Positions 20,542 to 53,674 of a stretch of 64,000 bases of DNA are shown here, one piece after another. The stretch is from Flectonema sp. DT1601 (Eukaryota). A program made the position numbers and the translations under genes. Below the pieces are notes generated by a model. That model was not told the origin of the DNA. It made no database searches and worked only from the letters and a program-made list of their open reading frames with translations. The stretch lies in contig OZ025800.1 in NCBI GenBank assembly GCA_964019425.1, positions 930,001 to 994,000 of the forward strand. Direction: 5' to 3'. The stretch's first letter is position 1. The number at the start of each line of letters is the position of its first letter.

Positions 20542-22425
20542 TTAATTCATTGCGAGTAATAATCCCATAGCCTGATCAACATCACCTCCACACGATGCGA
20601 GGACGTCTGTAATAATTTCTGTTGAGATATTTTGACAAATGCTACACAGCATCGCAACCTTTTCAGGATCAGCTACAGCTGCAACAGGAGGTACCGGAAC
20701 TGGAGAAGAGTCTTCTGCTGGAGGGCGCTCCTCTGCACGAAGTTGTCGTCGTACTTTTTGTTGTTCGGTTGCAGTAGCCCAAGCGTCTTCTAATTTATCA
20801 GTACCCATCCTAGGTAACGTTGATGTTATCTCGTAATCTGGTATTAATTTTGGAGCTTCCGCCAATGCTGCCACTTCATCAGGAATCCATTCAGGTGACG
20901 TCTTCGAAACCATCAGACGTTGTCGATGATGATCAGATTTTGTTATTTTATCTGTATGCAACCATTTCTTAGGAGGCATAGTAGTCCTAAACTCTATATT
21001 TGTCATTAATGTGTAATTATCTTCAGACCAACTGCTATTTAGTATTACGAATGAAGCGACGTTGGCGAAGGTAACACCTTCTTTAAACTTCCCGTCAAGG
21101 ATTTGACCATTAGGTAGGTTGATTTTAATTGATATTTCACCATTTTTACCAATATTTGGTGTTTGGTCTTCATAACGTAATTTCTCCATAGTGATGAGGG
21201 TCATTAGCATTTCTTGTTGTGCAGCAGCAAGTTTTTGATCAGCGACTTGCTGTTTAACACTCGCTTCCATTGTACGTTTCGCGATAGCAGTTTCTCTTGC
21301 TGTCTGGTCTTCCTGATCTTCATAATCAGGTGCTGGAACAAATTCAACTTTGAAAGCAATTTCCCACTGAGTATCAGTACTAATTAATCTAACAGCTCCT
21401 GGTGGATGAGTATCCAGAACTTCAAGACTGTGATCAACTGCTCCTTCTGGTTTAGGTAATTTAATTCTAATGGTACTGTGAACAGTTAAAGCTGTTAAGT
21501 AGGAATCCTTCATAGCGATATTTAATATTGTTTCTGTACTTCCTAAATGTTTACAAGATTCCATATCATCGTAAAAAGTTTTACTTCTTGGTTGTAAAAG
21601 GATTCGTTCAGCTGCTTTTAATTCAACACATCTGAGATTTAAAGACATCGAAGGATGTGGTACGTTTAAATTTTGAAGAACCCATGTTGGAACAACAACT
21701 TCATCATCTTTCAAAACTTCCATAAATGGTTGATCACTACTAATACCCATGTGATGAACCCGACCTTCTTGAGTCTTCAATTCGAATATTAACGGAAGTT
21801 TCGTGTTCGGTTGATACAAAGTATGCATCGCTGAAATAGGTAATGAGATTCTGTCTGACAACTCTCTCGCTGGACAATCCGTGACGGGTAAGACTCGAAC
21901 TGTTTTTTCGAAATTATTAGTAGTTGGGAATGCAGATGTCCTGACGCTAACAGCCTCCTGAGTAGCAGGTTTGATTGGATAACTTCTTACTGTGTGTTGT
22001 GCATTATGAACTTGACAGTTTGAATCGAGTAATCTAAGTTTGAAATCAGTAATGAAATCAATTACTTTTAATTTAGAACTCCAATCATGTCCCAGTAATA
22101 TGGTTTTGACGACACCACCTCCGAAGGTAAAGAGTGGATTTGGGATCATGACTGGTTCAAAAATTCTTACTTCTGGAGGGCTCAAAGGATAATCAGAAGG
22201 AAAATATAACCTCAATTCCATACAGTTCTTCTTCGGATCCGCCATTCTTTTTGCATAGGCATTGAGCCCTTGTTGTAGTTCTGTATTTTCTAAGAATTTC
22301 AATCGAATCGCCCACTTTGTCAGATCCTCATCAACAAGTGAGATGCCGGAATATACACTTGGTACTTTCATCTCTGCCTCTTTGTATTCAGTTATTAGTT
22401 GTTGACGGCATAGAGTAGAAGCCAT
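20542..22425 (-). CDS. Multidomain ubiquitin-system protein: UBC-like (UEV) + UFD1-like + UBX + CUE
   Basis: FPSDYPLSPPEVRI (UBC fold). DRISLPISAM..LPLIFEL..VVVPTWVLQNL (UFD1 N-domain). IKINLPNGQILDGKF..FRTTMPPK (UBX). ISTEIITDVLASCGGDVDQAMGLLLAM (CUE). Confidence 0.75.
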   Translation of the reverse strand: MASTLCRQQLITEYKEAEMKVPSVYSGISLVDEDLTKWAIRLKFLENTELQQGLNAYAKRMADPKKNCMELRLYFPSDYPLSPPEVRIFEPVMIPNPLFTFGGGVVKTILLGHDWSSKLKVIDFITDFKLRLLDSNCQVHNAQHTVRSYPIKPATQEAVSVRTSAFPTTNNFEKTVRVLPVTDCPARELSDRISLPISAMHTLYQPNTKLPLIFELKTQEGRVHHMGISSDQPFMEVLKDDEVVVPTWVLQNLNVPHPSMSLNLRCVELKAAERILLQPRSKTFYDDMESCKHLGSTETILNIAMKDSYLTALTVHSTIRIKLPKPEGAVDHSLEVLDTHPPGAVRLISTDTQWEIAFKVEFVPAPDYEDQEDQTARETAIAKRTMEASVKQQVADQKLAAAQQEMLMTLITMEKLRYEDQTPNIGKNGEISIKINLPNGQILDGKFKEGVTFANVASFVILNSSWSEDNYTLMTNIEFRTTMPPKKWLHTDKITKSDHHRQRLMVSKTSPEWIPDEVAALAEAPKLIPDYEITSTLPRMGTDKLEDAWATATEQQKVRRQLRAEERPPAEDSSPVPVPPVAAVADPEKVAMLCSICQNISTEIITDVLASCGGDVDQAMGLLLAMN

Positions 22426-29451: not shown

Positions 29452-29511
29452 GGGAAAACCTCTAATCCAGACACAAAAGTTTCCGAAACCGCCAACTCTA
29501 TACAAAAAAAG

Positions 29512-29588
29512 TGCCTTGTGGCCTGTGGTTAAAAAATCCGCCACCCGGAATCGAACTTGCCGAATTTAAGGCAGACTTTTTTTTTTTT
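29512..29588 (+). promoter_or_regulatory. tRNA-like / Pol III-like cassette inside the left TIR
   Basis: 7-bp acceptor-like stem TGCCTTG/TAAGGCA, A-box-like TGGCCTGTGG at position 8, B-box-like GGAATCGAACT (AGTTCGATTCC on the minus strand), then T12. Confidence 0.45.
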
Positions 29589-30300
29589 CTGAAAAATGCG
29601 TTGAGTAATTTTAAATCTCCTCACAATTTTTTCTAAACAAACATGCCTGCTTCTGATGGGAGACACTTTTGGGACGCGTGACAAGTTCACAAAGAGTTTT
29701 TCTCAGATTATTTTGGACGTTCTTGCACCACGTCCGCCTGCCAATGTTTAGCTTGTACTAACATCATTGCCTCAAACCACCAGCACATCGTTTAAGGTGG
29801 TCTCTATGGAGGTGGGTGTTACAGTGGCACCAACTGCCCTTACATTGGCAACAGCTGTACAAGCACCCACTGAAGGGATGTAAGCACCTTGTTGACAAAG
29901 GCCCAAACGAAGATGCATCGATCATTGTATGCAAAAATGACTTCCAGGGATGAAGCCGACGGAAGACACAGAGGGGATGGATATATGGGGCAGACACTCT
30001 GGAACGTTGGTCAGACGCTTAATTGGCCCAAAGACGTACCCTGACCGAACGAATGTGGTGTGATTCAAAGGAGGGCTTGTTGTTTATGATCGGAAAATCA
30101 ATCTTCGTGTGCCAAAGAGCCATCGGGGCGCAGGATTGTAACTCCACCGCCTTTGCCAGGATAACCTTCGCCACAGCAACAGTCCGTACCTGACGGCACA
30201 AAACCTCGTATTCAAGTTATCAACAAGTTCCTCAAGTTATCAAGTACAGTTAGTCAGTACAGTTAGTCACTCAACATTGTGTTGACATTTTGAGGCAAAC

Positions 30301-30385
30301 AAAAAAAAAGGTTTGCAGCCGGGTTCGAACCCGCGAATTGCACCTCAGAAGACCGCGGTAACACCCACTGGGCCACCGTGTCAGC
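30301..30385 (-). promoter_or_regulatory. tRNA-derived Pol III-like cassette (A box, B box, oligo-T) originally next to the right TIR
   Basis: A-box TGGCCCAGTGG (30375-30365), B-box GGTTCGAACCC (30331-30321), T9 terminator. No complete cloverleaf. Confidence 0.55.
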
Positions 30386-30890
30386 AACAAAAAATAAATT
30401 TTTTTTTTTTTTTTTTGGTTACACTCGTCTGTGCTACCAAACTCTTTGTTTTTGTTCTTTTCACTTCTATGTTTTGTCTTTCTTTTATACTTTCTTTTTA
30501 ACTTAAGTCTGACAAATTGGAAAACACGGGAAACATAGGTAGGCTCCGCCTGAGGACGTAAGAAGAGCGGCAACGGAAAAATAAATGGTCACGCGTCCTT
30601 GAAATTGGACACATGAAGCTAATTCGGTTGCCATTCCTACCATCGATAAGGAAAAACAAAGAATCGAGCATATAACTAGAGCGGTGGTCAAAGACCACTT
30701 GAACAGCCCGAAGGCCTGCCCTCAAGAGAAATTTATAAGGAGAATAGGAGAAGAAGGAGACAGGAGTGTTGGATGAGACACTGCGACAACACCGAAGGTG
30801 ATGTGCAGTTACCCAACCAGGAGATGATTGATAATGATGAAAATACTAAAATAATAACAAATTGATATTGGCGACTACATGTCACCTACT

Positions 30891-33800
30891 TTACTTCCAA
30901 AGTCTAAGGTTAGATGTTTGTTCCATCCACCTTATGATCAACGCGAGTGATGGAAGCCACGCCAAAGTGAAGAGAGCTTCAAGGTTAGGAATTTCGTTGG
31001 CAATAATAAGTTCTCGATCGCGATCCCACTTGCCGGTCAGTGTTGAGAAGCCCAGGATTTTGAACCTGGCAGAGTCGAGTTTGGGAGATTGACATCCCTG
31101 CAGCAGGTGAACCTGTGAGGACGGTTCGCCACAAAATGGGCAGTCGATCGTCTTGCGCCAGTTCTGAATTAGCGGGTGACATCCTGTCCGGAAGTTCGCT
31201 ATCCGTATCTCGTCGGCTCTTTCCATCCCAGGAGGGTATTTAACGGAACGGCCTCTGATGAGGTGTTTGTAGCAGGTGTAACCACTCACGTTAAGCAGAT
31301 CCTTTTTGATGCAGCGCTTCACATGTGATGATCGCGAGAAGTACGTGCCTTTGACTAGCACAGGTCGGATGTTCTTGTTGTGCGCTGCTTCCTTTGCAAG
31401 CGCGTCAACTTCATCGTGAAACTCGATTCCAATGTGCGAGGGGATGAATTGCAAATGCACTTTCATCTCACACATGCGCAGGTATTCCAGTATCTTGAGG
31501 GACTCGGTATTCCTCTGTCTGCACCTTCCACCCAGCAGTTCATCCAGAAGGGATTTTGAGTCCGTGAATATCCTCACAGATTTCATTGAACGATCTTTGC
31601 TAAACACTGTTCTCAGATGTCTAGCCGCGTTCTTCAGAGCATGTTGTTCAGCCCTGTAGCTGCAGTCAGCTTGATAAAGCCTAGACGCGTAAGCAGATCG
31701 AAGGCCGCTACGTGACTTGGCAATATGAGCCGCACCGGCCGCGCCGGAAGCAGAGTAGGAGCCATCGCAGTTGATTACCATGTCGACAGGAGGCAACGTT
31801 CCAATGTACGACATGAACTTTTCTTTGTCCACCGCAGGGTTCGCGGACTTCGGAAATCCGCAGCTGTTGCTAATCCTAAGGTTCGTCGGAGATACCCAGG
31901 GTTCCATCGAGTCAGGCTGCACAAGGCACTGGCTTTCACGCTGACTATCAGTGCCAGGGATTAGGCCAGCCCAGTAGCTTTGTGTTGAGGCGAGTCTGTT
32001 TGTATTAGGTATCCAAGTCATGGCTTTATACCGGTAGTACGCAATTTTTGTCTGCTTTTCAATCTGACGTTTAAAAGGATACATGTCAGACTCCCACAAC
32101 AGTAACTCTCTTGGCGTACACTTGCTGCATCCAGTAACCAGTCTGGCGACCTTCCTCAGTTCGAAGTCGATGCTGTCAACGCTGCTGCTTATCAGCCAAC
32201 CAAAACTGTCAAGCGCATACGAGATTCTCGCGGTTACATAAAGGTTCTTAACCATGTTAAGAGTCTTGTAGTCCAGTTCGTACGGCTGGAGGCACTGCAG
32301 AAGTGATATCCCCCTCTTTAATTCTTCGTGAATCTTGCCTACTTGTTTGTGGAAGGTGAGCCTGTCGTCGATGTGAACCCCGAGGTATTTTACTGAGTCG
32401 ACTATCGGTAACAGAAAGGCAGTTTTGAATATTGTTCTCACAACCATAATGCTGTCCTCACGAACGACGTATTGCAGCATCAAGTTGTCGAGTTCTTCTT
32501 GTGTCTTGATTGGGATTCCTCCAATTTCAAGAATAGTTTCGCCACTTTGAAGCATGGGTCTGGGTGATTTGAGATTGATATGCTTCTCGATGTCACCATA
32601 GTCAAGTTTAAGCATGCGTTCCTCAACAGATCTAGAGAAAAGCAGTTCGCGATTACACGTATCGTTTAGTACTATGCCCTTCGAGCGAACATTCATCTTA
32701 AGCGCACAGGTTTTGGAGACTGATAAGGCCATGTCGTTTTCAAAACACCATTGATCCACTTTGTCGAGTACTAACTGAGCATTCGAAAGAGCTTCTTCCA
32801 TGTTTGATCCTGACACCACACATGCTGTGTCATCCGCATACAGAGCAGACGTCGTTGTTTCCTTCTCCAGTTCCAAAATCTTGCAGAGGTCATCAACGTA
32901 GATAAGATAGAGAAGAGGACCCAGGATCGATCCCTGGGGAACCCCCTTAGCCAGAGTACGGAATTCGCTAAAATACCCATTCGCTTCAACTCTAACCTTC
33001 CTGTTTGTAAGAAAGTCTGTGATCCATCTGATAATAACATTCGGAACACCCATCTTTACTAATTTTAATAAAAGTATCTTATGGTTGATCCTGTCAAACG
33101 CAGCAGTAAAGTCGAATGACAAGAACACTGATCTCTTTTCTTCCATGTGGCTCCTTACGATAGCATCTACTAGAACGGTGATCTGCTCGCAGGTATTTCT
33201 CCCCTTTCTGAATCCAGCCTGTAGTGGGCTGAGCGACGAATGTTTTGTGAGCCAGTGCATGAGTCGGTCATACACGAGCCTCTCCGCAAGTTTCCCAACA
33301 ACCGAGGTGAGCGTTATTGGTCTGAAACTCTTTAGTTCATTACGAGGTTTCCCTGCCTTGAACATGGGCTTGATTAGTCCCTGTTTCCATTGGTACGGTA
33401 CTTTTGAAGTCTTCCAGGAAGTGTTAATAATTCTCAAGAGGTATTCCACTGTTGCCGGAGTGAAGTTTTTGATCATCTCATTGTGAACTCCATCAGGTCC
33501 TGCAGCCTTGCGGGTCTTCAGGTTCTTAATCGCAGCTTTAATTTCAGCCATTGTGAAATCACAGCAAATATCTATTTCATTATCACCTTCTGAGAGTGCG
33601 GGGGCCTCTAGCGATAATATTTCCGATTTCGAGACAAACAGGTCCAAGAATGCTGATGGTAGATCGCAGTCAGAGATGTTGTTGACACTGATATCTTTAC
33701 CAGCATCTTGCTGCAGTTCTTTGATCTTCTTAAACGCAAAGGCAAAGTTGTTACCCTTGTCAAGTTGATCACGTAGGTGGACACCCTTCGATTTGGTAGA

Positions 33801-34802
33801 ATCTGGAGTTGACGTCTTCCACTTTCGTCTCCGTTTCCCTTTGAAAAGGAGACGTCGACGAATGAATTTAGCCGCCACTTCATGCAGTATGTTGTTAAAG
33901 AGCTTGGCATTCGCAGTTGCATCATCGGAGAGTCTTGATTTTCTAATTCTCTTTTCGAGCATGGTCCCAAAGCAGTTCCAGTCCGTAGACTTGAAGTCCC
34001 ATACAACGCGTTTCTTCGAACCTATCGTGGCCCGTGCAAGTTGGCACATGGGATCCAGTACGGTGTAGAGAGGTCGATGATCTGACCCATGTTTATTATC
34101 TTCTTCAATTGCACTAAATTCTTCAAGAACCATCGAGTTTGAAAAGAATACTACATCTGGCGAGGTACCACCCCCCGGGACGTCAGGAAAAGGCCTTGTG
34201 ATTGACCCCATCTTGTTAGCAACCAGTAGATCATTTTGAGCTGCCCATGCATGTAGAGTTGAACCTGCTCTCGTCGATTTAAGTGACCACACCGGATGAT
34301 GGGCATTAAAGTCACCCGCGACGATTGCTTTCGTTGAGACTGGAAGATCTGACTCTCTGATCATGCATCCCGGGGGAGCATAAACATTGATGATGTCAAT
34401 CTTTCCACCTATGTTGACCTTCACGACCTCGACATCATTAAAGTGTGGCGGAAGCTCCATGTTCAAACGCTGCTGAGTGTGGCATTTTTTCACCATAGAA
34501 ATAACCCCTCCACCTCGTGTTGCCCTATCATTCCGATAGGTGAAATAGTCCGTGTGCGAAATTACATCATTCGTCCAAGTCTCCTGTAGGCACAGTACGT
34601 CAGGCGCATAGGCATTAAGCAGCTTGTGAATATAAGCGCCTTTGTTCCCCATCGATCGACAGTTCCAGCTCAGTAGAGATATGAGAGAGTTGTCAGGGCC
34701 AGGGTTGCGTTCGACGTCGCCTGCCTTTAGCAGCAGTTCACGAGCCGTATCCTTTTCCACAAGTGAGTTGGTCGGACTGAGTTCATCCTCATCGTCATCT
34801 AG
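30891..34802 (-). CDS. LINE ORF2: 2A peptide, apurinic-like endonuclease, reverse transcriptase, RNase H, zinc finger
   Basis: LLLKAGDVERNPGP. APE motifs SWNCR, LQET, GDFNAH, SDH. RT motifs QAGFR, DFTAAFD, GVPQGS, YADD, KYLGV. RNase H motifs CDGS, AE, TDS, PSH. CPFC..HLL..C. No internal stops. Confidence 0.92.
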   Translation of the reverse strand, partial: LDDDEDELSPTNSLVEKDTARELLLKAGDVERNPGPDNSLISLLSWNCRSMGNKGAYIHKLLNAYAPDVLCLQETWTNDVISHTDYFTYRNDRATRGGGVISMVKKCHTQQRLNMELPPHFNDVEVVKVNIGGKIDIINVYAPPGCMIRESDLPVSTKAIVAGDFNAHHPVWSLKSTRAGSTLHAWAAQNDLLVANKMGSITRPFPDVPGGGTSPDVVFFSNSMVLEEFSAIEEDNKHGSDHRPLYTVLDPMCQLARATIGSKKRVVWDFKSTDWNCFGTMLEKRIRKSRLSDDATANAKLFNNILHEVAAKFIRRRLLFKGKRRRKWKTSTPDSTKSKGVHLRDQLDKGNNFAFAFKKIKELQQDAGKDISVNNISDCDLPSAFLDLFVSKSEILSLEAPALSEGDNEIDICCDFTMAEIKAAIKNLKTRKAAGPDGVHNEMIKNFTPATVEYLLRIINTSWKTSKVPYQWKQGLIKPMFKAGKPRNELKSFRPITLTSVVGKLAERLVYDRLMHWLTKHSSLSPLQAGFRKGRNTCEQITVLVDAIVRSHMEEKRSVFLSFDFTAAFDRINHKILLLKLVKMGVPNVIIRWITDFLTNRKVRVEANGYFSEFRTLAKGVPQGSILGPLLYLIYVDDLCKILELEKETTTSALYADDTACVVSGSNMEEALSNAQLVLDKVDQWCFENDMALSVSKTCALKMNVRSKGIVLNDTCNRELLFSRSVEERMLKLDYGDIEKHINLKSPRPMLQSGETILEIGGIPIKTQEELDNLMLQYVVREDSIMVVRTIFKTAFLLPIVDSVKYLGVHIDDRLTFHKQVGKIHEELKRGISLLQCLQPYELDYKTLNMVKNLYVTARISYALDSFGWLISSSVDSIDFELRKVARLVTGCSKCTPRELLLWESDMYPFKRQIEKQTKIAYYRYKAMTWIPNTNRLASTQSYWAGLIPGTDSQRESQCLVQPDSMEPWVSPTNLRISNSCGFPKSANPAVDKEKFMSYIGTLPPVDMVINCDGSYSASGAAGAAHIAKSRSGLRSAYASRLYQADCSYRAEQHALKNAARHLRTVFSKDRSMKSVRIFTDSKSLLDELLGGRCRQRNTESLKILEYLRMCEMKVHLQFIPSHIGIEFHDEVDALAKEAAHNKNIRPVLVKGTYFSRSSHVKRCIKKDLLNVSGYTCYKHLIRGRSVKYPPGMERADEIRIANFRTGCHPLIQNWRKTIDCPFCGEPSSQVHLLQGCQSPKLDSARFKILGFSTLTGKWDRDRELIIANEIPNLEALFTLAWLPSLALIIRWMEQTSNLRLWK

Positions 34803-36455
34803 TCAGTTGAGATCAAAGTCCGAATCGTTACTTTCCATTTCTACGTCACGGTTTTTATCACTATCCTGCTTAGCAGCAGATTCGGTGGGCGGTGTTGTTG
34901 TTTGTGCTGTTGCTGGTGCTGGCGTTGGTGCTGATGGTGCTGGCGCTGGTGTTGGTGCTGATGTCGGCTGCTGAGTTGGCTGTTGTGGTTGAGGAGTTGT
35001 TTTTTGTCTCTTCAGGGTTCCCGTTAGTTTTTGAGCCGCGTCGCCTGGGTTGTAGGTTGGGCCTAGCGGTTTTCTGTCAGTTCGTTTAACTTCTTTGTTT
35101 ATCACAAGGTATTCATTAGTACCTATGCTTACGAAGTTGGGCGGTTGAGATTTCGCAATTGCAACAATTGTAGTACTCCCTCCTTTATGGAAAGAAGCAA
35201 CAACTGTGTGTTCCCAGTTGTGTGAGGACTTCAAGAAGTCGCTGATCTGCGCTGTTGAGTACTTACGAATCGCCATCGAATTTATAACAAACCTGTCGCC
35301 CGAGGGCAGTGCAGGCTTGATTGCCGCGTTGAGCTTAATGCTGACCCTGATATTACAGTCAGGGTGGACTCGGAGTCCAAAACAGCTTTTAAACCTGCAC
35401 ATGTAGAATTTTCCTTTGAATTCATCAAGTGCAGAAGTCTTGGACTTCGCTGCCAGGAAGCCAAGGTCGTTTTTGAATTGCAACGTTGGCCAAACGTCAC
35501 TTCCGTTCGACCAACTCGGGTTTCTGAAAAAGACATTCTTGGGTTTGTCAGTTTCGGGTTCGCTGTTGTTGTATTCCAGAACCTCGTGTACTTGGTTTCT
35601 GGGGACTCTGAAAGCCATCGAGGTGTGGGACTCGTTCTTTCTGTAGCTAAAGGGGTCCGCCTTTATCTTCAATTTCTTTAGAATATCGGTCGTTTTGACG
35701 GTCAATTCTTTCTCAGCTGATTTTCCCCAGTCTTGGATGAATAGAACTGGGTTGGGAGTTGGAATCTGGTGGCTAGTTGCTGCTTTAGAAAAGTCGTCAC
35801 CAAATACGTGCGTGTAAAATACGCGCCTGATCTCGCAGACGCCACCCTTTTTTATCACCGGTAATGCTACTGGAACGGTGCTCTTTGTGAGCGGGATTTT
35901 GCTGATAGCAGCCCAACGGCCGCTCTTCTTTGTTTGGCGGAGTGCTTCTAAGTCTAGCTTCGAACGAACTAAAACAAGACCAGAGGTAAGGTTGTTTGTA
36001 GCATTAGCTGCTACGTCGTAACTGATGGTGGCCACAGCGCCTGCCCACGCACCGTGAATGTGCCACTCCGGGTAGCTTGCTTTTGCCTTTCCCTTCGTGG
36101 TTTGATTGTCCTTCATTGCTGTCGGTATCGGCAATGAGAACGGCTTCGTACTCGTTTGTTGATTAGAAGCTGTAGATGCTCCTGTAGTTGGTTGGTTGAC
36201 ACCTGTGGTTGAGGGTGTCGTCGCTTCTGCTGCCGTCGTCGCGGTCGCTTCCGTCCCACCACTCCCATCGAGTGTGTCCGGTGTCCTCCTCTTCATCTCC
36301 GGGTTCCCACCTTCTGACCCAGCTACGAATTGAACGATCTCCATTAGGAGATTTGCCACCCTTCTTTCCTTCTCTTGCTCCGGGATCCCGTCTTCTCCCA
36401 CTATCTTCAGGAGGTTTATTGCCTCCGATACCAACCTCTTCAGGTTGTCTCTCAT
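34803..36455 (-). CDS. LINE ORF1 (550 aa, basic, no recognisable CCHC knuckle)
   Basis: ATG 36455 to TGA 34805-34803. Lies between the element 5' end and ORF2, in the same frame as ORF2. Confidence 0.85.
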   Translation of the reverse strand: MRDNLKRLVSEAINLLKIVGEDGIPEQEKERRVANLLMEIVQFVAGSEGGNPEMKRRTPDTLDGSGGTEATATTAAEATTPSTTGVNQPTTGASTASNQQTSTKPFSLPIPTAMKDNQTTKGKAKASYPEWHIHGAWAGAVATISYDVAANATNNLTSGLVLVRSKLDLEALRQTKKSGRWAAISKIPLTKSTVPVALPVIKKGGVCEIRRVFYTHVFGDDFSKAATSHQIPTPNPVLFIQDWGKSAEKELTVKTTDILKKLKIKADPFSYRKNESHTSMAFRVPRNQVHEVLEYNNSEPETDKPKNVFFRNPSWSNGSDVWPTLQFKNDLGFLAAKSKTSALDEFKGKFYMCRFKSCFGLRVHPDCNIRVSIKLNAAIKPALPSGDRFVINSMAIRKYSTAQISDFLKSSHNWEHTVVASFHKGGSTTIVAIAKSQPPNFVSIGTNEYLVINKEVKRTDRKPLGPTYNPGDAAQKLTGTLKRQKTTPQPQQPTQQPTSAPTPAPAPSAPTPAPATAQTTTPPTESAAKQDSDKNRDVEMESNDSDFDLN

Positions 36456-36615
36456 AATTGCTTTTTCCAATAAAGTACAGAAACTGTAGCTTTAGAATCG
36501 TTGGAATAAATTTTATAATTCTTTCATTGGGGGATTGTTACTCCCGTGACAAAATTTTTTTTTGTATAGAGTTGGCGGTTTCGGAAACTTTTGTGTTCGG
36601 ATTAGGGGTTTTCCC

Positions 36616-39600
36616 TTAAAACTTTGTGCGTGGAGCTGGCAGTTTTTTTGAAACTTTGTGCGTGGAGCCGGCTGTTTTTTTGAAACTTTGTGTGTGGAGC
36701 TTGCTATTTTTTAAAACTTTGTGTGTGGAGCTGGCTGTTTTTTTGAAACTTTGTGGAGCTGGCTATTTTTTAAAACTTTGTGTGTGGTGCTGGCAGTTTT
36801 TTTGAAATTTTGTGCGTGGAGCTGGCTGTTTTTTTGAAACTTTGTGCGTGGAGCCGGCTGTTTTTTTGAAACTTTGTGTGTGGAGCTGGCTATTTTTTAG
36901 AACTTTGTATGGAGCTGGCTGTTTATTAAAACTTTGTGTCTGGAGCTGGCATTTTTTTGAAACTTTGTGTGGAGCTAGCAGTTTTTTTGAAACTTTGTGC
37001 GTGGAGCCGGCTGTTTTTTTGAAACTTTGTGTGTGGAGCTGGCAGTTTTTTTGAAACTTTGTGCGTGGAGTTGGCTGTTTTTTTGAAACTTTGTGCGTGG
37101 AGCCGGCTATTTTTTAAAACTTTGTGTGTGGAGCTGGCAGTTTTTTTGAAACTTTGTGCGTGGAGCTGGCTGTTTTATTGAAACTTTGTGTGTGGAGCTG
37201 GCTATTTTTTAAAACTTTGTGTGTGGAGCTGGCAGTTTTTTTGAAACTTTGTGCGTGGAGCTGGCTGTTTTATTGAAACTTTGTGTGTGGAGCTGGCTGT
37301 ATTTTTGAAACTTTGTGCGTGGAGCCGGCTGTTTTTTTGAAACTTTGCGTGGAGCTGGCTGTATTTTTGAAACTTTGTGCGTGGAGCCGGCTGTTTTTTT
37401 GAAACTTTGTGCGTGGAGCTGGCTGTTTTTTTGAAACTTTGTGCGTGGAGCTGGCTGTATTTTTGAAACTTTGTGCGTGGAGCCGGCTGTTTTATTGAAA
37501 CTTTGGGTGTGGAGCTGGCTGTTTTTTTGAAACTTTGTGCGTGGAGCTGGCTGTATTTTTGAAACTTTGTGCGTGGAGCCGGCTGTTTTTTTGAAACTTT
37601 GTGCGTGGAGCTGGCTGTTTTTTTGAAACTTTGTGCGTGGAGCTGGCTGTATTTTTGAAACTTTGTGCGTGGAGCCGGCTGTTTTATTGAAACTTTGGGT
37701 GTGGAGCTGGCTGTTTTTTTGAAACTTTGTGCGTGGAGCTGGCTGTATTTTTGAAACTTTGTGCGTGGAGCCGGCTGTTTTTTTGAAACTTTGTGCGTGG
37801 AGCTGGCTGTTTTTTTGAAACTTTGTGTGGAGCTAGCTGTTTTTTAAAACTTTGTGTGTTGAGCTGGCTATATTTTTGAAACTTTGTGTGTGGAGCTGGC
37901 TGTATTTTTGAAACTTTGTGTGTGGAGCCGTCTGTTTATTCGAAACTTTGTGTGTGGAGCTGGCTGTTTTTTTGAAACTTTGTGCGGAGCTGGCTGTTTT
38001 TTCAAAAATTTGTGCGTGGAGCTGGCTGTTTTTTTGCAACTTTGTGTAGCAGGCTATTTTTTAAAACTTTGTGTGTGGAGCTGGCTGTTTTTTTGAAACT
38101 TTGTGCGTGGAGCCGGCTGTTTTTTTGAAACTTTGTGCGTGGAGCTGGCTGTTTTTTTGAAACTTTGTGTGGAGCTAGCTGTTTTTTAAAACTTTGTGTG
38201 TTGAGCTGGCTATATTTTTGAAACTTTGTGTGTGGAGCTGGCTGTATTTTTGAAACTTTGTGCGTGGAGCTGGCTGTTTTATTGAAACTTTGTGTGTGGA
38301 GCTGGCTGTATTTTTGAAACTTTGTGCGTGGAGCCGGCTGTTTTTTTGAAACTTTGCGTGGAGCTGGCTGTATTTTTGAAACTTTGTGCGTGGAGCCGGC
38401 TGTTTTTTTGAAACTTTGTGCGTGGAGCTGGCTGTTTTTTTGAAACTTTGTGCGTGGAGCTGGCTGTATTTTTGAAACTTTGTGCGTGGAGCCGGCTGTT
38501 TTATTGAAACTTTGGGTGTGGAGCTGGCTGTTTTTTTGAAACTTTGTGCGTGGAGCTGGCTGTATTTTTGAAACTTTGTGCGTGGAGCCGGCTGTTTTTT
38601 TGAAACTTTGTGCGTGGAGCTGGCTGTTTTTTTGAAACTTTGTGCGTGGAGCTGGCTGTATTTTTGAAACTTTGTGCGTGGAGCCGGCTGTTTTATTGAA
38701 ACTTTGGGTGTGGAGCTGGCTGTTTTTTTGAAACTTTGTGCGTGGAGCTGGCTGTATTTTTGAAACTTTGTGCGTGGAGCCGGCTGTTTTTTTGAAACTT
38801 TGTGCGTGGAGCTGGCTGTTTTTTTGAAACTTTGTGTGGAGCTAGCTGTTTTTTAAAACTTTGTGTGTTGAGCTGGCTATATTTTTGAAACTTTGTGTGT
38901 GGAGCTGGCTGTATTTTTGAAACTTTGTGTGTGGAGCCGTCTGTTTATTCGAAACTTTGTGTGTGGAGCTGGCTGTTTTTTTGAAACTTTGTGCGGAGCT
39001 GGCTGTTTTTTCAAAAATTTGTGCGTGGAGCTGGCTGTTTTTTTGCAACTTTGTGTAGCAGGCTATTTTTTAAAACTTTGTGTGTGGAGCTGGCTGTTTT
39101 TTTGAAAATTTGTGCGTGGAGCTGGCAGTTTTTTTGAAACTTTGTGTGTGGAGCTGGCAGTTTTTTGAAACTTTGCGTGGAGCTGGCTGTATTTTTGAAA
39201 CTTTGTGCGTGGAGCCGGCTGTTTTTTTGAAACTTTGTGCGTGGAGCCGGCTGTTTTATTGAAACTTTGTGCGTGGAGCTGGCAGTTTTTTGAAACTTTG
39301 TGCGTGGAGCTGGCTGTATTTTTGAAACTTTGTGCGTGGAGCCGGCTGTTTTTTTGAAACTTTGCGTGGAGCTGGCTGTATTTTTGAAACTTTGTGCGTG
39401 GAGCCGGCTGTTTTTTTGAAACTTTGTGCGTGGAGCTGGCTGTTTTTTTGAAACTTTGTGTGTGGAGCTGGCTGTTTTTTTGCAACTTTGTGCGTGGAGC
39501 TGGCTGTTTTTTTGAAACTTTGTGTGGAGCTAGCTGTTTTTTAAAACTTTGTGTGTTGAGCTGGCTATATTTTTGAAACTTTGTGTGTGGAGCTGGCTGT

Positions 39601-42600
39601 TTTTTTGAAACTTTGTGTGGAGCTAGCTGTTTTTTAAAACTTTGTGTGTTGAGCTGGCTGTATTTTTGAAACTTTGTGTGTGGAGCCGTCTGTTTATTCG
39701 AAACTTTGTGTGTGGAGCTGGCTGTTTTTTTGAAACTTTGTGCGGAGCTGGCTGTTTTTTTAAAACTGTGTGCGTGGAGCTGGCTGTTTTTTTGCAACTT
39801 TGTGGAGCAGGCTATTTTTTAAAACTTTGTGTGTGGAGCTGGCTGTTTTTTTGAAAATTTGTGTGTGGAGCTGGCTATTTTTTAAACCTTTGTGTGTGGA
39901 GCTGGCAGTTTTTTTGAAACTTTGTGCGTGGAGCTGGCAGTTTTTTTGAAACTTTGTGTGTGGAACTAGCAGTTTTTTGAAACTTTGTGTGTGGAGCTGG
40001 CTGTTTTTTTGAAACTTTTTACGTTGAGCCAGCTGTTTTTTCGAAACTTTGTGTGTGGAGCTGGCTGTTTTTTTGAAACTTTGTGCGGAGCTGGCTGTTT
40101 TTTTAAAACTTTGTGCGTGGAGCTGGCTGTTTTTTTGCAACTTTGTGGAGCAGGCTATTTTTTAAAACTTTGTGTGTGGAGCTGGCTATTTTTTAAACCT
40201 TTGTGTGTGGAGCTGGCAGTTTTTTTGAAACTTTGTGCGTGGAGCTGGCAGTTTTTTTGAAACTTTGTGTGTGGAGCTGGCAGTTTTTTGAAACTTTGTG
40301 CGTGGAGCTGGCTGTTTTTTTGAAACTTTTTGCGTGGAGCCGGCTGTTTTTTCGAAACTTTGTGTGTGGAGCTGGCTGTTTTTTTGAAACTTTGTGCGTG
40401 GAGCTGGCTGTTTTTTTGAAAATTTTTGTGTGGAGCTGGCTATTTTTTAAACCTTTGTGTGTGGAGCTGGCAGTTTTTTTGAAACTTTGTGCGTGGAGCT
40501 GGCAGTTTTTTTGAAACTTTGTGTGTGGAGCTGGCAGTTTTTTGAAACTTTGTGCGTGGAGCTGGCTGTTTTTTTGAAACTTTTTGCGTGGAGCCGGCTG
40601 TTTTTTTGAAACTTTGTGTGTGGAGCTGGCTGTTTTTTTGAAACTTTGTGCGTGGAGCTGGCTGTTTTTTTGAAAATTTTTGTGTGGAGCTGGCTATTTT
40701 TTAAAACTTTGTGTGTAGAACTGGCAGTTTTTTTAAAACTTTGTGCGTGGAGCTGGCTGTTTTTTTGAAAATTTGTTTGTGGAGCTGGCTATTTTTTAAA
40801 ACTTTGTGTGTGGAGCTGGCTGTTTCTTTGAAACTTTTTGCGTGGAGCCGGCTGTTTTTTTGAAACTTTGTGTGTGGAGCTGGCTGTTTTTTTGAAACTT
40901 TATGTGTGGAGCTGGCTGTTTTTTTGAAACTTTGTGTGGAGCTAGCTGTTTTTTAAAACTTTGTGTGTTGAGCTGGCTGTATTTTTGAAACTTTGTGTGT
41001 GGAGCCGTCTGTTTTTTCGAAACTTTGTGTGTGGAGCTGGCTGTTTTTTTGAAACTTTGTGCGTGGAGCTGGCTGTTTTTTTGAAAATTTTTGTGTGGAG
41101 CTGGCTGTTTCTTAAAACTTTGTGTGTGGAGCTGGCTGTTTTTTTGAAACTTTGTGCGTGGAGCTGGCTGTTTTTTTGAAAATTTTTGTGTGGAACTAGC
41201 TGTTTTTTAAAACTTTGTGTGTGGAGCTGGCTGTTTTTTTGAAACTTTGTGTGTGGAGCTGGCTGTTTTTTTGAAACTTTGTGCGTGGAGCTGGCTGTTT
41301 TTTTGAAAATTTTTGTGTGGAGCTGGCTGTTTTTTAAAACTTTGTGTGTGGAGCTGGCTGTTTTTTTGAAACTTTGTGTGGAGCTAGCTGTTTTTTAAAA
41401 CTTTGTGTGTTGAGCTGGCTGTATTTTTGAAACTTTGTGTGTGGAGCCGTCTGTTTTTTCGAAACTTTGTGTGTGGAGCTTGCTGTTTTTTTGAAACTTT
41501 GTGTGTGGAGCTGGCTGTTTTTTTGAAACTTTGTGCGGAGCTGGCTGTTTTTTTAAAACTTTGTGCGTGGAGCTGGCTGTTTTTTTGATAATTTGTGTGT
41601 GGAGCTGGCTGTTTTTTTGAAAATTTGTGTGTGGAGCTGGCTATTTTTTAAACCTTTGTGTGTGGAGCTGGCAGTTTTTTTGAAACTTTGTGCGTGGAGC
41701 TGGCAGTTTTTTTGAAACTTTGTGTGTGGAGCTGGCAGTTTTTTGAAACTTTGTGCGTGGAGCTGGCTGTTTTTTTGAAACTTTTTGCGTGGAGCCGGCT
41801 GTTTTTTCGAAACTTTGTGTGTGGAGCTGGCTGTATTTTTGAAACTTTGTGTGTGGAGCCGTCTGTTTTTTCGAAACTTTGTGTGTGGAGCTTGCTGTTT
41901 TTTTGAAACTTTGTGTGTGGAGCTGGCTGTTTTTTTGAAACTTTGTGCGGAGCTGGCTGTTTTTTTAAAACTTTGTGCGTGGAGCTGGCTGTTTTTTTGC
42001 AACTTTGTGGAGCAGGCTATTTTTTAAAACTTTGTGTGTGGAGCTGGCTATTTTTTAAACCTTTGTGTGTGGAGCTGGCAGTTTTTTTGAAACTTTGTGC
42101 GTGGAGCTGGCAGTTTTTTTGAAACTTTGTGTGTGGAGCTGGCAGTTTTTTGAAACTTTGTGCGTGGAGCTGGCTGTTTTTTTGAAACTTTTTGCGTGGA
42201 GCCGGCTGTTTTTTCGAAACTTTGTGTGTGGAGCTTGCTGTTTTTTTGAAACTTTGTGTGTGGAGCTGGCTGTTTTTTTGAAACTTTGTGTGTGGAGCTG
42301 GCTGTTTTTTTGAAAATTTTTGTGTGGAGCTGGCTATTTTTTAAAACTTTGTGTGTAGAACTGGCAGTTTTTTTAAAACTTTGTGCGTGGAGCTGGCTGT
42401 TTTTTTGAAAATTTGTTTGTGGAGCTGGCTATTTTTTAAAACTTTGTGTGTGGAGCTGGCTGTTTCTTTGAAACTTTTTGCGTGGAGCCGGCTGTTTTTT
42501 TGAAACTTTGTGTGTGGAGCTGGCTGTTTTTTTGAAACTTTGTGTGTGGAGCTGGCTGTTTTTTTGAAACTTTGTGTGGAGCTAGCTGTTTTTTAAAACT

Positions 42601-45600
42601 TTGTGTGTTGAGCTGGCTGTATTTTTGAAACTTTGTGTGTGGAGCCGTCTGTTTTTTCGAAACTTTGTGTGTGGAGCTGGCTGTTTTTTTGAAACTTTGT
42701 GCGTGGAGCTGGCTGTTTTTTTGAAAATTTTTGTGTGGAGCTGGCTGTTTTTTAAAACTTTGTGTGTGGAGCTTGCTGTTTTTTTGAAACTTTGTGTGTG
42801 GAGCTGGCTGTTTTTTTGAAACTTTGTGCGTGGAGCTGGCTGTTTTTTTGAAAATTTTTGTGTGGAGCTGGCTGTTTTTTAAAACTTTGTGTGTGGAGCT
42901 GGCTGTTTTTTTGAAACTTTGTGCGTGGAGCTGGCTGTTTTTTAAAAACTTTGTGCGTGGAGCTGGCTGTTTTTTTGAAAATTTGTGTGGAGCTGGCTAT
43001 TTTTTAAAACTTTGTGTGTGGAGCAGGCTATTTTTTAAAACTTTGTGTGTGGAGCTGGCTGTTTTTTTGAAACTTTGTGCGGAGCTGGCTGTTTTTTTAA
43101 AACTTTGTGCGTGGAGCTGGCTGTTTTTTTGATAATTTGTGTGTGGAGCTGGCTGTTTTTTTGATAATTTGTGTGTGGAGCTGGCTATTTTTTAAAACTT
43201 TGTGTGTGGAGCAGGCAGTTTTTTAGAAACTTTGTGCGGAGCTAGCTGTTTTTTTAAAACTTTGTGCGTGGAGCTGGCTGTTTTTTTGAAACTTTGTGCG
43301 TGGAGCTGGTAGTTTTTTTGAAACTTTGTGCGTGGAGTTGGCTGTTTTTTTTAAACTTTGTGCGTGGAGCTGGCTGTTTTTTTGAAACTTTGTGTGGAGC
43401 TAGCTGTTTTTTAAAACTTTGTGTGTTGAGCTGGCTGTATTTTTGAAACTTTGTGTGTGGAGCTGGCTGTATTTTTGAAACTTTTTATGTGGAGCCGTCT
43501 GTTTTTTAAAAACTTTGTGTGTGGAGCTGGCTGTTTTTTTGAAACTTTGTGCGGAGCTGGCTGTTTTTTTAAAACTTTGTGCGTGGAGCTGGCTGTTTTT
43601 TTGATAATTTGTGTGTGGAGCTGGCTGTTTTTTTGAAAATTTGTGTGGAGCTGGCTATTTTTTAAAACTTTGTGTGTGGAGCAGGCTATTTTTTAAAACT
43701 TTGTGTGTGGAGCTGGCTGTTTTTTTGAAACTTTGTGCGGAGCTGGCTATTTTTTTAAAACTTTGTGCGTGGAGCTGGCTGTTTTTTTGATAATTTGTGT
43801 GTGGAGCTGGCTGTTTTTTTGATAATTTGTGTGTGGAGCTGGCTATTTTTTAAAACTTTGTGTGTGGAGCAGGCAGTTTTTTAGAAACTTTGTGCGGAGC
43901 TGGCTGTTTTTTTAAAACTTTGTGCGTGGAGCTGGCTGTTTTTTTGATAATTTGTGTGTGGAGCTGGCTGTTTTTTTGAAAATTTGTGCGTGGAGCTGGC
44001 TATTTTTTAAAACTTTGTGTGTGGAGCAGGCAGTTTTTTAGAAACTTTGTGCGTGGAGCTGGCAGTTTTTTTGAAACTTTGTGTGTGGAGCTGGCCGTTT
44101 TTTGAAACTTTGTGCGTGGAGTTGGCTGCTTTTTTGAAACCTTGTGTGGAGCTAGCTGTTTTTTAAAACTTTGTGTGTTGAGCTGGCTGTATCTTTGAAA
44201 CTTTGTGTGCGGGGCTGTTTTATTGAAAATTTTTGTGTGGAGCTGGCTATTTTTTAAAAACTTTGTGCGTGGAGCTGGCTGTTTTTTTGAAACTTTGTGC
44301 GTGGAGCTGGCTGTTTTTTTGAAAATTTGTGTGGAGCTGGCTATTTTTTAAAACTTTGTGTGTGGAGCAGGCTATTTTTTAAAACTTTGTGTGTGGAGCT
44401 GGCTGCTTTTTTGAAACTTTGTGCGGAGCTGGCTGTTTTTTTAAAACTTTGTGCGTGGAGCTGGCTGTTTTTTTGATAATTTGTGTGTGGAGCTGGCTGT
44501 TTTTTTGATAATTTGTGTGTGGAGCTGGCTATTTTTTAAAACTTTGTGTGTGGAGCAGGCAGTTTTTTAGAAACTTTGTGCGTGGAGCTGGCAGTTTTTT
44601 TGAAACTTTGTGTGTGGAGCTGGCCGTTTTTTGAAACTTTGTGCGTGGAGTTGGCTGTTTTTTTGAAACCTTGTGTGGAGCTAGCTGTTTTTTAAAACTT
44701 TGTGTGTTGAGCTGGTTGTATTTTTGAAACTTTGTGTGTGGAGCTGGCAGTTTTTTGAAACTTTGTGCGTGGAGCTGGCTGTTTTTTTGAAACTTTTTGC
44801 GTGGAGCCGGCTGTTTTTTTGAAACTTTGTGTGTGGAGCTGGCTGTTTTTTTGAAACTTTGTGCGTGGAGCTGGCTGTTTTTTTGAAAATTTTTGTGTGG
44901 AGCTGGCTATTTTTTAAAACTTTGTGTGTAGAACTGGCAGTTTTTTTAAAACTTTGTGCGTGGAGCTGGCTGTTTTTTTGAAAATTTGTTTGTGGAGCTG
45001 GCTATTTTTTAAAACTTTGTGTGTGGAGCTGGCTGTTTCTTTGAAACTTTTTGCGTGGAGCCGGCTGTTTTTTTGAAACTTTGTGTGTGGAGCTGGCTGT
45101 TTTTTTGAAACTTTATGTGTGGAGCTGGCTGTTTTTTTGAAACTTTGTGTGGAGCTAGCTGTTTTTTAAAACTTTGTGTGTTGAGCTGGCTGTATTTTTG
45201 AAACTTTGTGTGTGGAGCCGTCTGTTTTTTCGAAACTTTGTGTGTGGAGCTGGCTGTTTTTTTGAAACTTTGTGCGTGGAGCTGGCTGTTTTTTTGAAAA
45301 TTTTTGTGTGGAGCTGGCTGTTTCTTAAAACTTTGTGTGTGGAGCTGGCTGTTTTTTTGAAACTTTGTGCGTGGAGCTGGCTGTTTTTTTGAAAATTTTT
45401 GTGTGGAACTAGCTGTTTTTTAAAACTTTGTGTGTGGAGCTGGCTGTTTTTTTGAAACTTTGTGTGTGGAGCTGGCTGTTTTTTTGAAACTTTGTGCGTG
45501 GAGCTGGCTGTTTTTTTGAAAATTTTTGTGTGGAGCTGGCTGTTTTTTAAAACTTTGTGTGTGGAGCTGGCTGTTTTTTTGAAACTTTGTGTGGAGCTAG

Positions 45601-51600: not shown

Positions 51601-52404
51601 ACTTTGTGTGTGGAGCTGGCAGTTTTTTTGAAACTTTGTGTGTGGAGCTGGCCGTTTTTTGAAACTTTGTGCGTGGAGTTGGCTGTTTTTTTGAAACCTT
51701 GTGTGGAGCTAGCTGTTTTTTAAAACTTTGTGTGTTGAGCTGGCTGTATCTTTGAAACTTTGTGTGTGGGGCTGTTTTATTGAAAATTTTTGTGTGGAGC
51801 TGGCTATTTTTTAAAAACTTTGTGCGTGGAGCTGGCTGTTTTTTTGAAACTTTGTGCGTGGAGCTGGCTGTTTTTTTGAAAATTTGTGTGGAGCTGGCTA
51901 TTTTTTAAAAATTTGTGTGTGGAGCTGGCTGTTTTTTAAAAACTTTGTGCGTGGAGCTGGCTGTTTTTTTGAAACTTTGTGCGTGGAGCTGGCTGTTTTT
52001 TTGAAAATTTGTGTGGAGCTGGCTATTTTTTAAAACTTTGTGTGTGGAGCAGGCTATTTTTTAAAACTTTGTGTGTGGAGCTGGCTGTTTTTTTGAAACT
52101 TTGTGCGGAGCTGGCTGTTTTTTTAAAACTTTGTGCGTGGAGCTGGCTGTTTTTTTGATAATTTGTGTGTGGAGCTGGCTGTTTTTTTGAAAATTTGTGT
52201 GGAGCTGGCTATTTTTTAAAACTTTGTGTGTGGAGCTGGCTGTTTTTTTGAAACTTTGTGCGGAGCTGGCTGTTTTTTTAAAACTTTGTGCGTGGAGCTG
52301 GCTGTTTTTTTGAAAATTTGTGTGTGGAGCTGGCTATTTTTTAAAACTTTGTGTGTGGAGCAGGCAGTTTTTTAGAAACTTTGTGCGTGGAGCTGGCAGT
52401 TTTT
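36616..52404. repeat. Main satellite array, 30-32 bp unit GAAACTTTGTGYGTGGAGCTGGCTGTTTTTTT, roughly 500 units
   Basis: Continuous head-to-tail units with recurring variants. Identical ORF translations recur at offsets 1009, 3801 and 4213. Confidence 0.98.
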
Positions 52405-53215: not shown

Positions 53216-53221
53216 TTCTTT

Positions 53222-53674
53222 TGAAACTTTGTGTGTGGAGCTAGCTATTTTTTAAAACTTTGTGTGTTGAGCTGGCTGTATCTTTGAAACTTTGTGTGTG
53301 GGGCTGTTTTATTGAAAATTTTTGTGTGGAGCTGGCTATTTTTTAAAAATTTGTGTGTGGAGCTGGCTGTTTTTTAAAAACTTTGTGCGTGGAGCTGGCT
53401 GTTTTTTTGAAACTTTGTGTGTGGAGCTGGCAGTTTTTTTGAAACTTTGTGCGGAGCTGGCTGTTTTATTGAAAATTTTTGTGTGGAGCTGGCTATTTTT
53501 TAAAACTTTGTGTGTGGAGCTGGCAGTTTTTTTGAAACTTTGTGTGTGGAGCCGTCTGTTTTTTCGAAACTTTGTGTGTGGAGCTGGCTGTTTTTTTGAA
53601 ACTTTGTGCGGAGCTGGCTGTTTTTTTAAAACTTTGTGCGTGGAGCTGGCTGTTTTTTTGCAACTTTGTGGAGC
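53222..53674. repeat. Satellite island (32-bp unit)
   Basis: Same unit and orientation as the main array. Confidence 0.95.

What the first reader, a model, noticed from the sequence alone, without database searches (positions are those of the whole stretch)
32400..32700. PDZ-like module inserted inside the LINE reverse transcriptase
Seen: between KTCAL and KYLGVHID there are ~100 residues, where non-LTR RTs usually have about 25-35. The extra sequence includes LQSGETILEIGGIPIKTQEELDNLMLQY..SIMVVR. Known: this fits the PDZ signature L..GD.Il.InG..v.s..dl...l....v.l.v.R. Inference: a captured protein-interaction module in the RT palm/thumb junction, possibly tethering the RNP to a host partner or target chromatin.
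Basis: partly seen in the sequence, partly recalled or inferred. Interest (0 to 1): 0.78.

Follow-up and report, generated by a model that had tools for sequence, protein, structure and literature searches.

The report
PDZ-derived domain inside LINE reverse transcriptase
A family of jumping genes from marine flagellates carries about 70 extra amino acids inside its reverse transcriptase that match a cut-down PDZ protein-binding domain; it is predicted to have lost the usual peptide-gripping site, changes fast, and likely serves as a contact surface for a host protein.

Summary
ORF2 (30891-34802, minus strand; endonuclease-RT-RNase H) has 103 residues between KTCAL and KYLGVHID. All 10 related families found carry the insert, including four transcript-derived proteins from the diplonemid Flectonema neradi. 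They form one clade on the RT core, sister to a trypanosome ingi-like protein. It is not an intron: this copy carries a spliced leader, poly(A) and a target-site duplication, and still holds it. PDZ origin is well supported: the insert profile hits solved PDZ domains (E to 5e-8), all 11 non-family hits among 1.84 billion proteins are PDZ proteins, and the AlphaFold model matches only PDZ folds (50 of 50 rows, Z up to 7.6, individually middling). The module is reduced: no conserved GLGF loop, and a predicted helix where the peptide-binding strand should be. It is the fastest-changing part of ORF2 (28 of 81 differences between sister subfamilies). Function is untested; a host-facing contact surface is my best reading. 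No paper found; an earlier AI note of this scan reports a PDZ in a Copia element of another genome (unchecked). Verdict: real, new variant of ingi-like LINE.

The parts
32424..32636 (-). PDZ-derived insert core, ORF2 residues 723-793 (predicted betaA, helix, betaD-betaE, alphaB, betaF)
32514..32552 (-). L..GE.I..I.G motif (PDZ GD turn and betaD-betaE); Gly invariant in 10 of 10 families, Glu in 9 of 10
32472..32501 (-). alphaB-like helix, Leu conserved in 9 of 10
32580..32600 (-). predicted short helix standing where PDZ domains have the GLGF loop and betaB-betaC
   Evidence: model; N-cap-like pattern seen in alignment (my reading)
32637..32645 (-). L-x-F strand, inferred first strand of the RT's own hairpin (Phe invariant)
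32379..32390 (-). KYLG motif of the RT (primer-grip region; label from established knowledge)
30891..34802 (-). ORF2 frame, 1303 codons: 2A-like peptide, AP endonuclease, RT, RNase H, C-terminal CxxC
32703..33560 (-). RT core (YADD at 32829-32840)
   Evidence: (RVT_1 E 1e-32)
34068..34676 (-). AP endonuclease domain
   Evidence: (PF14529, PF03372)
31374..31781 (-). RNase H domain
   Evidence: Pfam RNase_H in relatives P0004, P0005, P0046 (below cut-off) and PF00075 precomputed for P0081-P0083; aligned
34695..34721 (-). 2A-like motif GDVERNPGP just before the endonuclease
   Evidence: motif GD(V/I)ExNPGP in PMC3708506
34799..34805 (-). single TGA between in-frame ORF1 and ORF2, followed by CTAG (readthrough-type context; motif recalled)
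34803..36455 (-). ORF1, 550 residues, no family found
36468..36504 (-). spliced-leader exon at the element's 5' end, lacking the first two bases
   Evidence: 35 of 37 bases match the 'Euglenozoa 14' leader printed in PMC3795323
30403..30416 (-). poly(A) tail
30393..30402 (+). target-site duplication, left copy (10 bp)
36505..36514 (+). target-site duplication, right copy (10 bp)

Best explanation
The reverse transcriptase of this LINE clade carries a 66-72 residue PDZ-related module just before its KYLG motif, likely captured once at the turn of a palm beta-hairpin, predicted to lack the GLGF loop and betaB strand, and likely acting as an outward-facing contact surface for a host protein. Shown: the insert, its presence in all 10 families, one clade, its sequence match to PDZ, its fast change. 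Predicted: the fold, with the first and last strands extending the RT's two hairpin strands, which would leave the polymerase core intact and hang the module off the palm. Inferred: one ancient capture from a PDZ gene; binding by a non-canonical surface, not a C-terminal peptide groove; a host partner that helps the particle localise or insert, or that restricts it and drives the surface to change.
For: Insert in 10 of 10 families and 49 of 49 stored members that span the site. One clade on the RT core without the insert columns, SH-aLRT 100, the two hosts interleaved. Ten-row profile vs PDB: top rows RseP-homologue PDZ tandem E 4.6e-8 (two domains summed), LIMK2 PDZ E 1.7e-4 over profile 4-78; of the 60 rows shown all but four (convicilin, two FlgD, pyruvate kinase) are PDZ-bearing proteins by name or my knowledge. 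Six-row profile vs 1.84 billion proteins: 18 hits, 7 family members or fragments, 11 multi-PDZ proteins. Model pLDDT 81-89 over residues 31-100; 50 of 50 rows PDZ against 48,161 chains, Z 5.5-7.1; best Z 7.6. With the hairpin columns left out, PDZ flank positions still score above 98 of 98 ordinary RTs. 28 of 81 differences between sister subfamilies fall in 103 of 1253 residues, Fisher p 1.6e-12, while minimum dN is 0.15-0.21 against dS about 0.5-1.8 next door: constrained but fast. Net charge is near neutral, which does not suggest nucleic-acid binding.
Against: No partner is known or tested. Fast change fits relaxed constraint as well as conflict; dS inside the insert could not be measured. 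The window's own insert has no Pfam match and no member reaches Pfam's cut-off (4 of 10 weak PDZ_6, best E 0.0013). No Foldseek row reached E 0.001 and no VIA row Z 8. On a native-hairpin score the PDZ betaD-betaE window fits better than the L-x-F window in 9 of 10 families. L-x-F lies 32-36 residues before the GE, like the phi-G-phi to GD spacing of permuted PDZs (30-34 in 22 of 27). I saw secondary structure and match ranges only, not coordinates.
Confidence: 0.5

Rival explanations
1. Tolerated passenger: a PDZ fragment landed in a permissive loop, became needed only for folding of the hairpin, and drifts with no binding role.
For: Lowest identity of any ORF2 region (mean 28% vs 62% for the RT core); binding loop lost; many changes are conservative.
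Against: Kept in 10 of 10 families across two hosts and at least three deep lineages, length held at 66-72 residues, no clean loss among 49 spanning members.
Confidence: 0.23
2. A working, circularly permuted (HtrA/RseP-type) PDZ in which L-x-F is the carboxylate loop, binding C-terminal tails in the usual way.
For: RLGF in 3 of 10 families; spacing to the GE fits; the best sequence hits are bacterial-type PDZs; hhalign probability 96.6% to them, and its global mode puts L-x-F on their LGV.
Against: The Gly is absent in 7 of 10. The model has one long strand then a helix and matches canonical-order PDZs end to end, while permuted PDZs fit badly (rmsd 11.6-14.5). ORF2 C-termini share no PDZ-binding motif.
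Confidence: 0.1
3. The module works inside the particle: it contacts ORF1p, another ORF2p domain or the primer-template duplex and raises processivity.
For: It sits next to the primer grip and thumb, which hold the primer in L1 ORF2p (PMC10830420). This clade also has an ORF1 that trypanosome ingi lacks.
Against: No conserved basic excess (K+R 6-13 vs D+E 9-13). Fast change between subfamilies whose other domains are 89-100% identical is not what a fixed internal interface predicts.
Confidence: 0.11
4. Chance mimicry: the betaD-betaE look-alike is the RT's own hairpin, and two separate loop expansions around it happen to resemble PDZ.
For: Ordinary LINE hairpins read like PDZ betaD-betaE; MAFFT aligns them there; native-hairpin score favours that window; 1 of 98 ordinary RTs scores 12.8 bits on a PDZ profile, above four family members.
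Against: Needs two insertions and leaves the invariant L-x-F unexplained. Non-hairpin PDZ positions: 0 of 107,524 random windows reach the scores of P0001-P0003, at most 1.9% reach the weakest family, 0 of 98 ordinary RTs reach the family minimum (the PDZ set was itself retrieved with the six-row profile, so partly circular). The whole module folds as PDZ.
Confidence: 0.06

Closest known systems
Ingi/L1Tc clade non-LTR retrotransposons of trypanosomatids
   Same: AP endonuclease-RT-RNase H, poly(A), target-site duplication (PMC12278014 passages); 2A-like peptide before the endonuclease (PMC3708506 passages); RT sister to a Trypanosoma congolense protein with this layout (P0100) and P0136, SH-aLRT 96.
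   Different: PDZ-derived insert, absent from P0100 and P0136; a 550-residue ORF1; a spliced leader at the 5' end with no room for the 77-nt Pr77 signature in this copy.
PDZ domains (canonical Shank/MAGI/NHERF type by fold; RseP/HtrA type by sequence)
   Same: L..G[DE].I..[VI].G motif, alphaB, betaF, predicted betaA-to-betaF order.
   Different: About 66-72 residues against 82-95 for the shortest single-domain chains matched; no conserved GLGF; predicted helix in place of betaB-betaC-alphaA; inserted inside an enzyme domain.
Retrotransposons that captured host domains (DNMT-carrying elements of dinoflagellates and charophytes, PMC5890265, abstract only; chromodomain integrases, recalled)
   Same: Host-type domain fixed in a retroelement's coding region.
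   Different: Here the domain is inside the RT fold and is a protein-interaction fold, not an enzyme or a terminal add-on.
T7 DNA polymerase thioredoxin-binding insertion (recalled, no call)
   Same: A roughly 70-80 residue insertion near the thumb of a right-hand polymerase that docks a host protein: a working analogy.
   Different: Unrelated fold, polymerase family and host; no such partner is shown here.

Membership tests
PDZ domain | GD turn with betaD-betaE hairpin | tested here: met
   Gly invariant, acidic residue Glu in 9 of 10; hairpin scores 12.9-21.7 bits on a PDZ matrix
PDZ domain | alphaB helix and betaF strand | tested here: met
   Model helix 69-78 and strand 86-100; alphaB positions score above all 98 ordinary RTs
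PDZ domain | Overall PDZ fold | tested here: met
   50 of 50 listed rows PDZ, Z 5.5-7.1, e.g. 3bpu Z 6.9, rmsd 2.8, 71 aligned; predicted model, Z under 8
PDZ domain | Conserved G-phi-G-phi carboxylate-binding loop | tested here: not met
   No such motif after the first strand; RLGF upstream in 3 of 10 only, none in the window's copy
PDZ domain | betaB-betaC hairpin forming the peptide groove with alphaB | tested here: not met
   Model has a helix and two 2-residue bridges in the 21 residues between the first strand and betaD; a prediction, coordinates not seen
PDZ domain | Pfam curated cut-off | tested here: not met
   4 of 10 match PDZ_6 weakly, best E 0.0013; 14.6 bits vs cut-off 27 in P0046
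PDZ domain | Binds C-terminal or internal peptides | not testable with these tools
   No candidate ligand
Ingi clade LINE | AP endonuclease-RT-RNase H in one frame | tested here: met
Ingi clade LINE | 2A-like peptide before the endonuclease | tested here: met
   P0001, P0003 and a variant in P0081; activity not tested
Ingi clade LINE | RT groups with ingi | tested here: inconclusive
   Sister to P0100 + P0136, SH-aLRT 96, 40 rows, quick tree, no named reference elements; that P0100 is ingi is my inference from its host and layout
Ingi clade LINE | 77-nt Pr77 signature at the 5' end | tested here: not met
   The 5' end is a spliced leader followed by 12 bases and the ORF1 ATG
Ingi clade LINE | Single ORF, no ORF1 | tested here: not met
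   550-residue ORF1 upstream, same frame, one stop between
Ingi clade LINE | Poly(A) tail and target-site duplication | tested here: met

The most novel reading that the evidence does not exclude
A LINE lineage has grafted a remodelled PDZ onto the palm of its reverse transcriptase as a dedicated, rapidly evolving host-docking module that steers or protects target-primed reverse transcription, and expresses the enzyme from a trans-spliced RNA by stop-codon readthrough followed by 2A release.
Probability: 0.35. Interest if true: 0.82.

Novelty: new variant of a known kind. Interest (0 to 1): 0.66.

Why it matters
LINE proteins need host partners, but the contact surfaces are mostly unknown. Here a recognisable interaction fold sits in a fixed place inside the polymerase and can be deleted, swapped or used as bait. 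It also marks a site in the non-LTR RT palm that has carried a 70-residue folded domain in mobile elements for a long time, which bears on RT evolution and on fusing targeting domains to such enzymes. It shows a PDZ reduced to a core without its usual binding loop. Diplonemid transposons are barely described (PMC10161547 passages say rigorous identification is still to be done).

Tried and rejected
Single-sequence AlphaFold failed (pLDDT 31.6). phmmer of the single insert against PDB gave only one weak non-PDZ row (E 1.6). Pfam and NCBIfam gave nothing for the window's insert. Intron reading rejected: 8 frame-preserving GT..AG pairs exist in the insert, but the copy is a retro-copy of a processed RNA and four transcript-derived proteins keep it. 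Homodimer prediction gave no verdict (score 0.00, alignment not used, fold uncertain): no evidence either way. The ESM Atlas did not complete. No whole genome is held, so copy number, target preference and dN/dS inside the insert could not be computed. The metagenome scan returned one unrelated locus at 22% identity. No RNA holder listed; no contig in the five runs covers the insert core. hhalign to a canonical-type PDZ set rested on two domains only and was uninformative (probability 20%). No Diplonema papillatum protein is named among the best 120 of 305 hits; this does not show absence. ORF1 has no Pfam or PDB match. ARAGORN found no tRNA and Rfam nothing near its cut-offs. Literature: searches (listings only) showed no paper on a PDZ in a retroelement RT; no description of diplonemid ingi-like elements. 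Supplements of PMC10161547 were not read and may bear on this; subscription papers and Repbase are not searched.

Full report
The element. The finding lies in a 1303-codon frame on the minus strand, 30891-34802, with AP endonuclease and RT by Pfam and an RNase H region that aligns with relatives scoring RNase_H. The copy is complete: a spliced-leader exon at 36468-36504, 12 bases, ORF1 (550 residues), ORF2, a 3' UTR, poly(A) at 30403-30416, and an exact 10-bp duplication at 30393-30402 and 36505-36514. The leader matches 35 of 37 bases of a published euglenozoan leader (PMC3795323, one passage), and contigs from three runs match it and diverge on both sides, as a leader gene would. A BILBO1_N gene nearby (E 1.6e-5, just under cut-off) also points to Euglenozoa. 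That the host is a diplonemid is inferred from its relatives in Flectonema neradi and from my recall of the diplonemid leader.

The observation. There are 103 residues between KTCAL and KYLGVHID. YADD-to-YLG spacing is 131-147 in this family and 65-100 in 98 of the 102 measurable ordinary RTs among 111 (four longer values, three apparently mis-anchored).

Distribution. The insert region found five related families in ENA records, which share contig lengths and so look like one assembly. Of 76 stored proteins, 49 span the site and all 49 have the insert (the pattern only counted inserts of 40-140 residues, the other 27 did not match it and are mostly fragments). An RT search added four families from Trinity assemblies of Flectonema neradi, 49-56% identical over the RT region. 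On 284 RT columns without the insert, the 10 families form one clade (SH-aLRT 100) among 40 rows, 30 of them picked by me from the 111 outside hits. The two hosts interleave, so the insert predates their split. The sister group is a Trypanosoma congolense protein and P0136 (96), both without the insert. An intron is excluded: a retro-copy of a leader-bearing, polyadenylated RNA keeps it, and so do the transcript-derived proteins.

PDZ relationship. The window's insert alone gives no Pfam or PDB signal. Profiles do. Six rows gave PDZ structures at E 3e-4. Ten rows gave E 4.6e-8 for the RseP-homologue tandem, 9e-5 for an HtrA and 1.7e-4 for LIMK2 PDZ; all but four of 60 rows shown are PDZ-bearing. 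Against 1.84 billion proteins the six-row profile found 18: seven family members or fragments and 11 multi-PDZ proteins. AlphaFold with ten rows gave mean pLDDT 75, 81-89 over the core. Foldseek listed only PDZ-containing entries but none at E 0.001. VIA-align listed 50 PDZ entries of 50 against 48,161 chains, Z 5.5-7.1, and up to 7.6 on the second look. These Z values are middling one by one; the weight is in their uniformity and in agreement with sequence.

A trap, tested. Ordinary LINE RTs have a hairpin here that reads like PDZ betaD-betaE, and MAFFT aligns it there. On a matrix of that native hairpin, the PDZ-like window outscores the L-x-F window in 9 of 10 families. So I scored the PDZ positions outside the hairpin: no ordinary RT of 98 reaches the family minimum, and none of 107,524 random windows reaches P0001-P0003; the weakest family is reached by 1.9%. 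The PDZ set came, so this is partly circular for P0001-P0006. The simplest history is one insertion at the hairpin turn: L-x-F lies 14-23 residues after the conserved Lys (native range 14-35), and the residues before YLG keep the native pattern at the inward positions; only the turn residues differ. The core is then 66-72 residues, 723-794 in ORF2.

It is a reduced PDZ. The model reads long strand, helix, betaD-betaE, alphaB, long strand and aligns to canonical PDZs from their first to last strand. Only 21 residues lie between the first strand and betaD, filled by a helix. No GLGF-type loop is conserved; RLGF occurs in 3 of 10 families, upstream. Its spacing to the GE fits a permuted PDZ, which I keep as a rival, but permuted PDZs fit the model badly. 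By established PDZ biology, betaB and the loop make the peptide site, so ordinary C-terminal binding is unlikely.

Evolution. The insert is the least conserved region of ORF2 (28% mean identity vs 62% for the RT core). Between two sister subfamilies, 28 of 81 differences fall in it (p 1.6e-12). Minimum dN is 0.15-0.21. Three short low-depth contigs that match the sister subfamily give dS of about 0.5, 1.7 and 1.8 just downstream. If dS is similar inside, the ratio is about 0.1-0.4: purifying overall, several times looser than the RT core. Positive selection is neither shown nor excluded.

How it likely works. Shown: presence, conservation, PDZ match, fast change. Predicted: fold and placement at the hairpin tip beside the primer grip, which in L1 ORF2p holds the primer ahead of the thumb (PMC10830420, passages and section 19). 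Inferred: a kept fold with a turning-over, near-neutral surface and no peptide loop best fits a host-facing contact, for recruitment or evasion (0.5). Passenger (0.23), internal particle role (0.11), working permuted PDZ (0.10) and mimicry (0.06) remain.

Novelty. Five paper searches (listings only) showed no PDZ in a retroelement RT. Capture of host domains by retrotransposons is known (PMC5890265, abstract). This scan has no look-alike sequence on record but holds an unchecked AI note on a PDZ between integrase and RT of a Copia element in another genome; if true it is an independent capture at a different position. I class this as a new variant of an ingi-like LINE and score it 0.66.

Noticed in passing
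window 34695-34805 (minus): ORF1 and ORF2 are in one frame, split by a single TGA followed by CTAG (a known readthrough context, recalled), then a 2A-like peptide. The first ATG of ORF2 lies past the endonuclease's first motif, so readthrough plus 2A release would explain ORF2 expression. One diverged contig (82% identical, depth 2) lists no difference at 34795-34811, but the table was cut. P0003 and P0081 begin with their own Met before the 2A.
   Followed up: partly
window 36468-36504 (minus): The LINE's 5' end is a trans-spliced leader exon, unlike the unspliced Pr77 start of trypanosome ingi/L1Tc; the element's RNA appears to be trans-spliced before reverse transcription. An AG follows 5 bases downstream and could serve as the next acceptor (inference).
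   Followed up: partly
window 29452-36615: The LINE sits inside a roughly 1-kb non-coding element with 59-bp terminal inverted repeats (95%) and a 9-bp target duplication, MULE-like by these features, itself inserted in a 32-bp satellite.
   Followed up: partly
window 36619-52404: About 503 copies of a 32-bp satellite with strong strand skew; further arrays at 53219-53670 and 58186-60016, with 140-150 bp repeats between.
   Followed up: no
window 34803-36455 (minus): ORF1 of 550 residues with no Pfam or PDB match; published ingi elements are said to lack ORF1. Its C-terminal half looks RRM-like by eye.
   Followed up: partly
window 30891-31790 (minus): Sister subfamilies P0001 and P0002 differ by 1 residue in the last 298 but are synonymously far apart upstream, which suggests a recent 3' recombination or template switch.
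   Followed up: partly
window 29520-29590 and 30310-30380: Two tRNA-like stretches by eye inside the inverted-repeat element, one right beside the LINE insertion site; ARAGORN and Rfam do not call them.
   Followed up: partly
window 20542-22425 (minus): Host gene joining a ubiquitin-conjugating-like domain, UFD1 N-terminal domain and UBX domain.
   Followed up: no
protein P0178: An unrelated LINE RT with a different insert of about 50 extra residues at the same site, a hint that this loop tolerates insertions.
   Followed up: no
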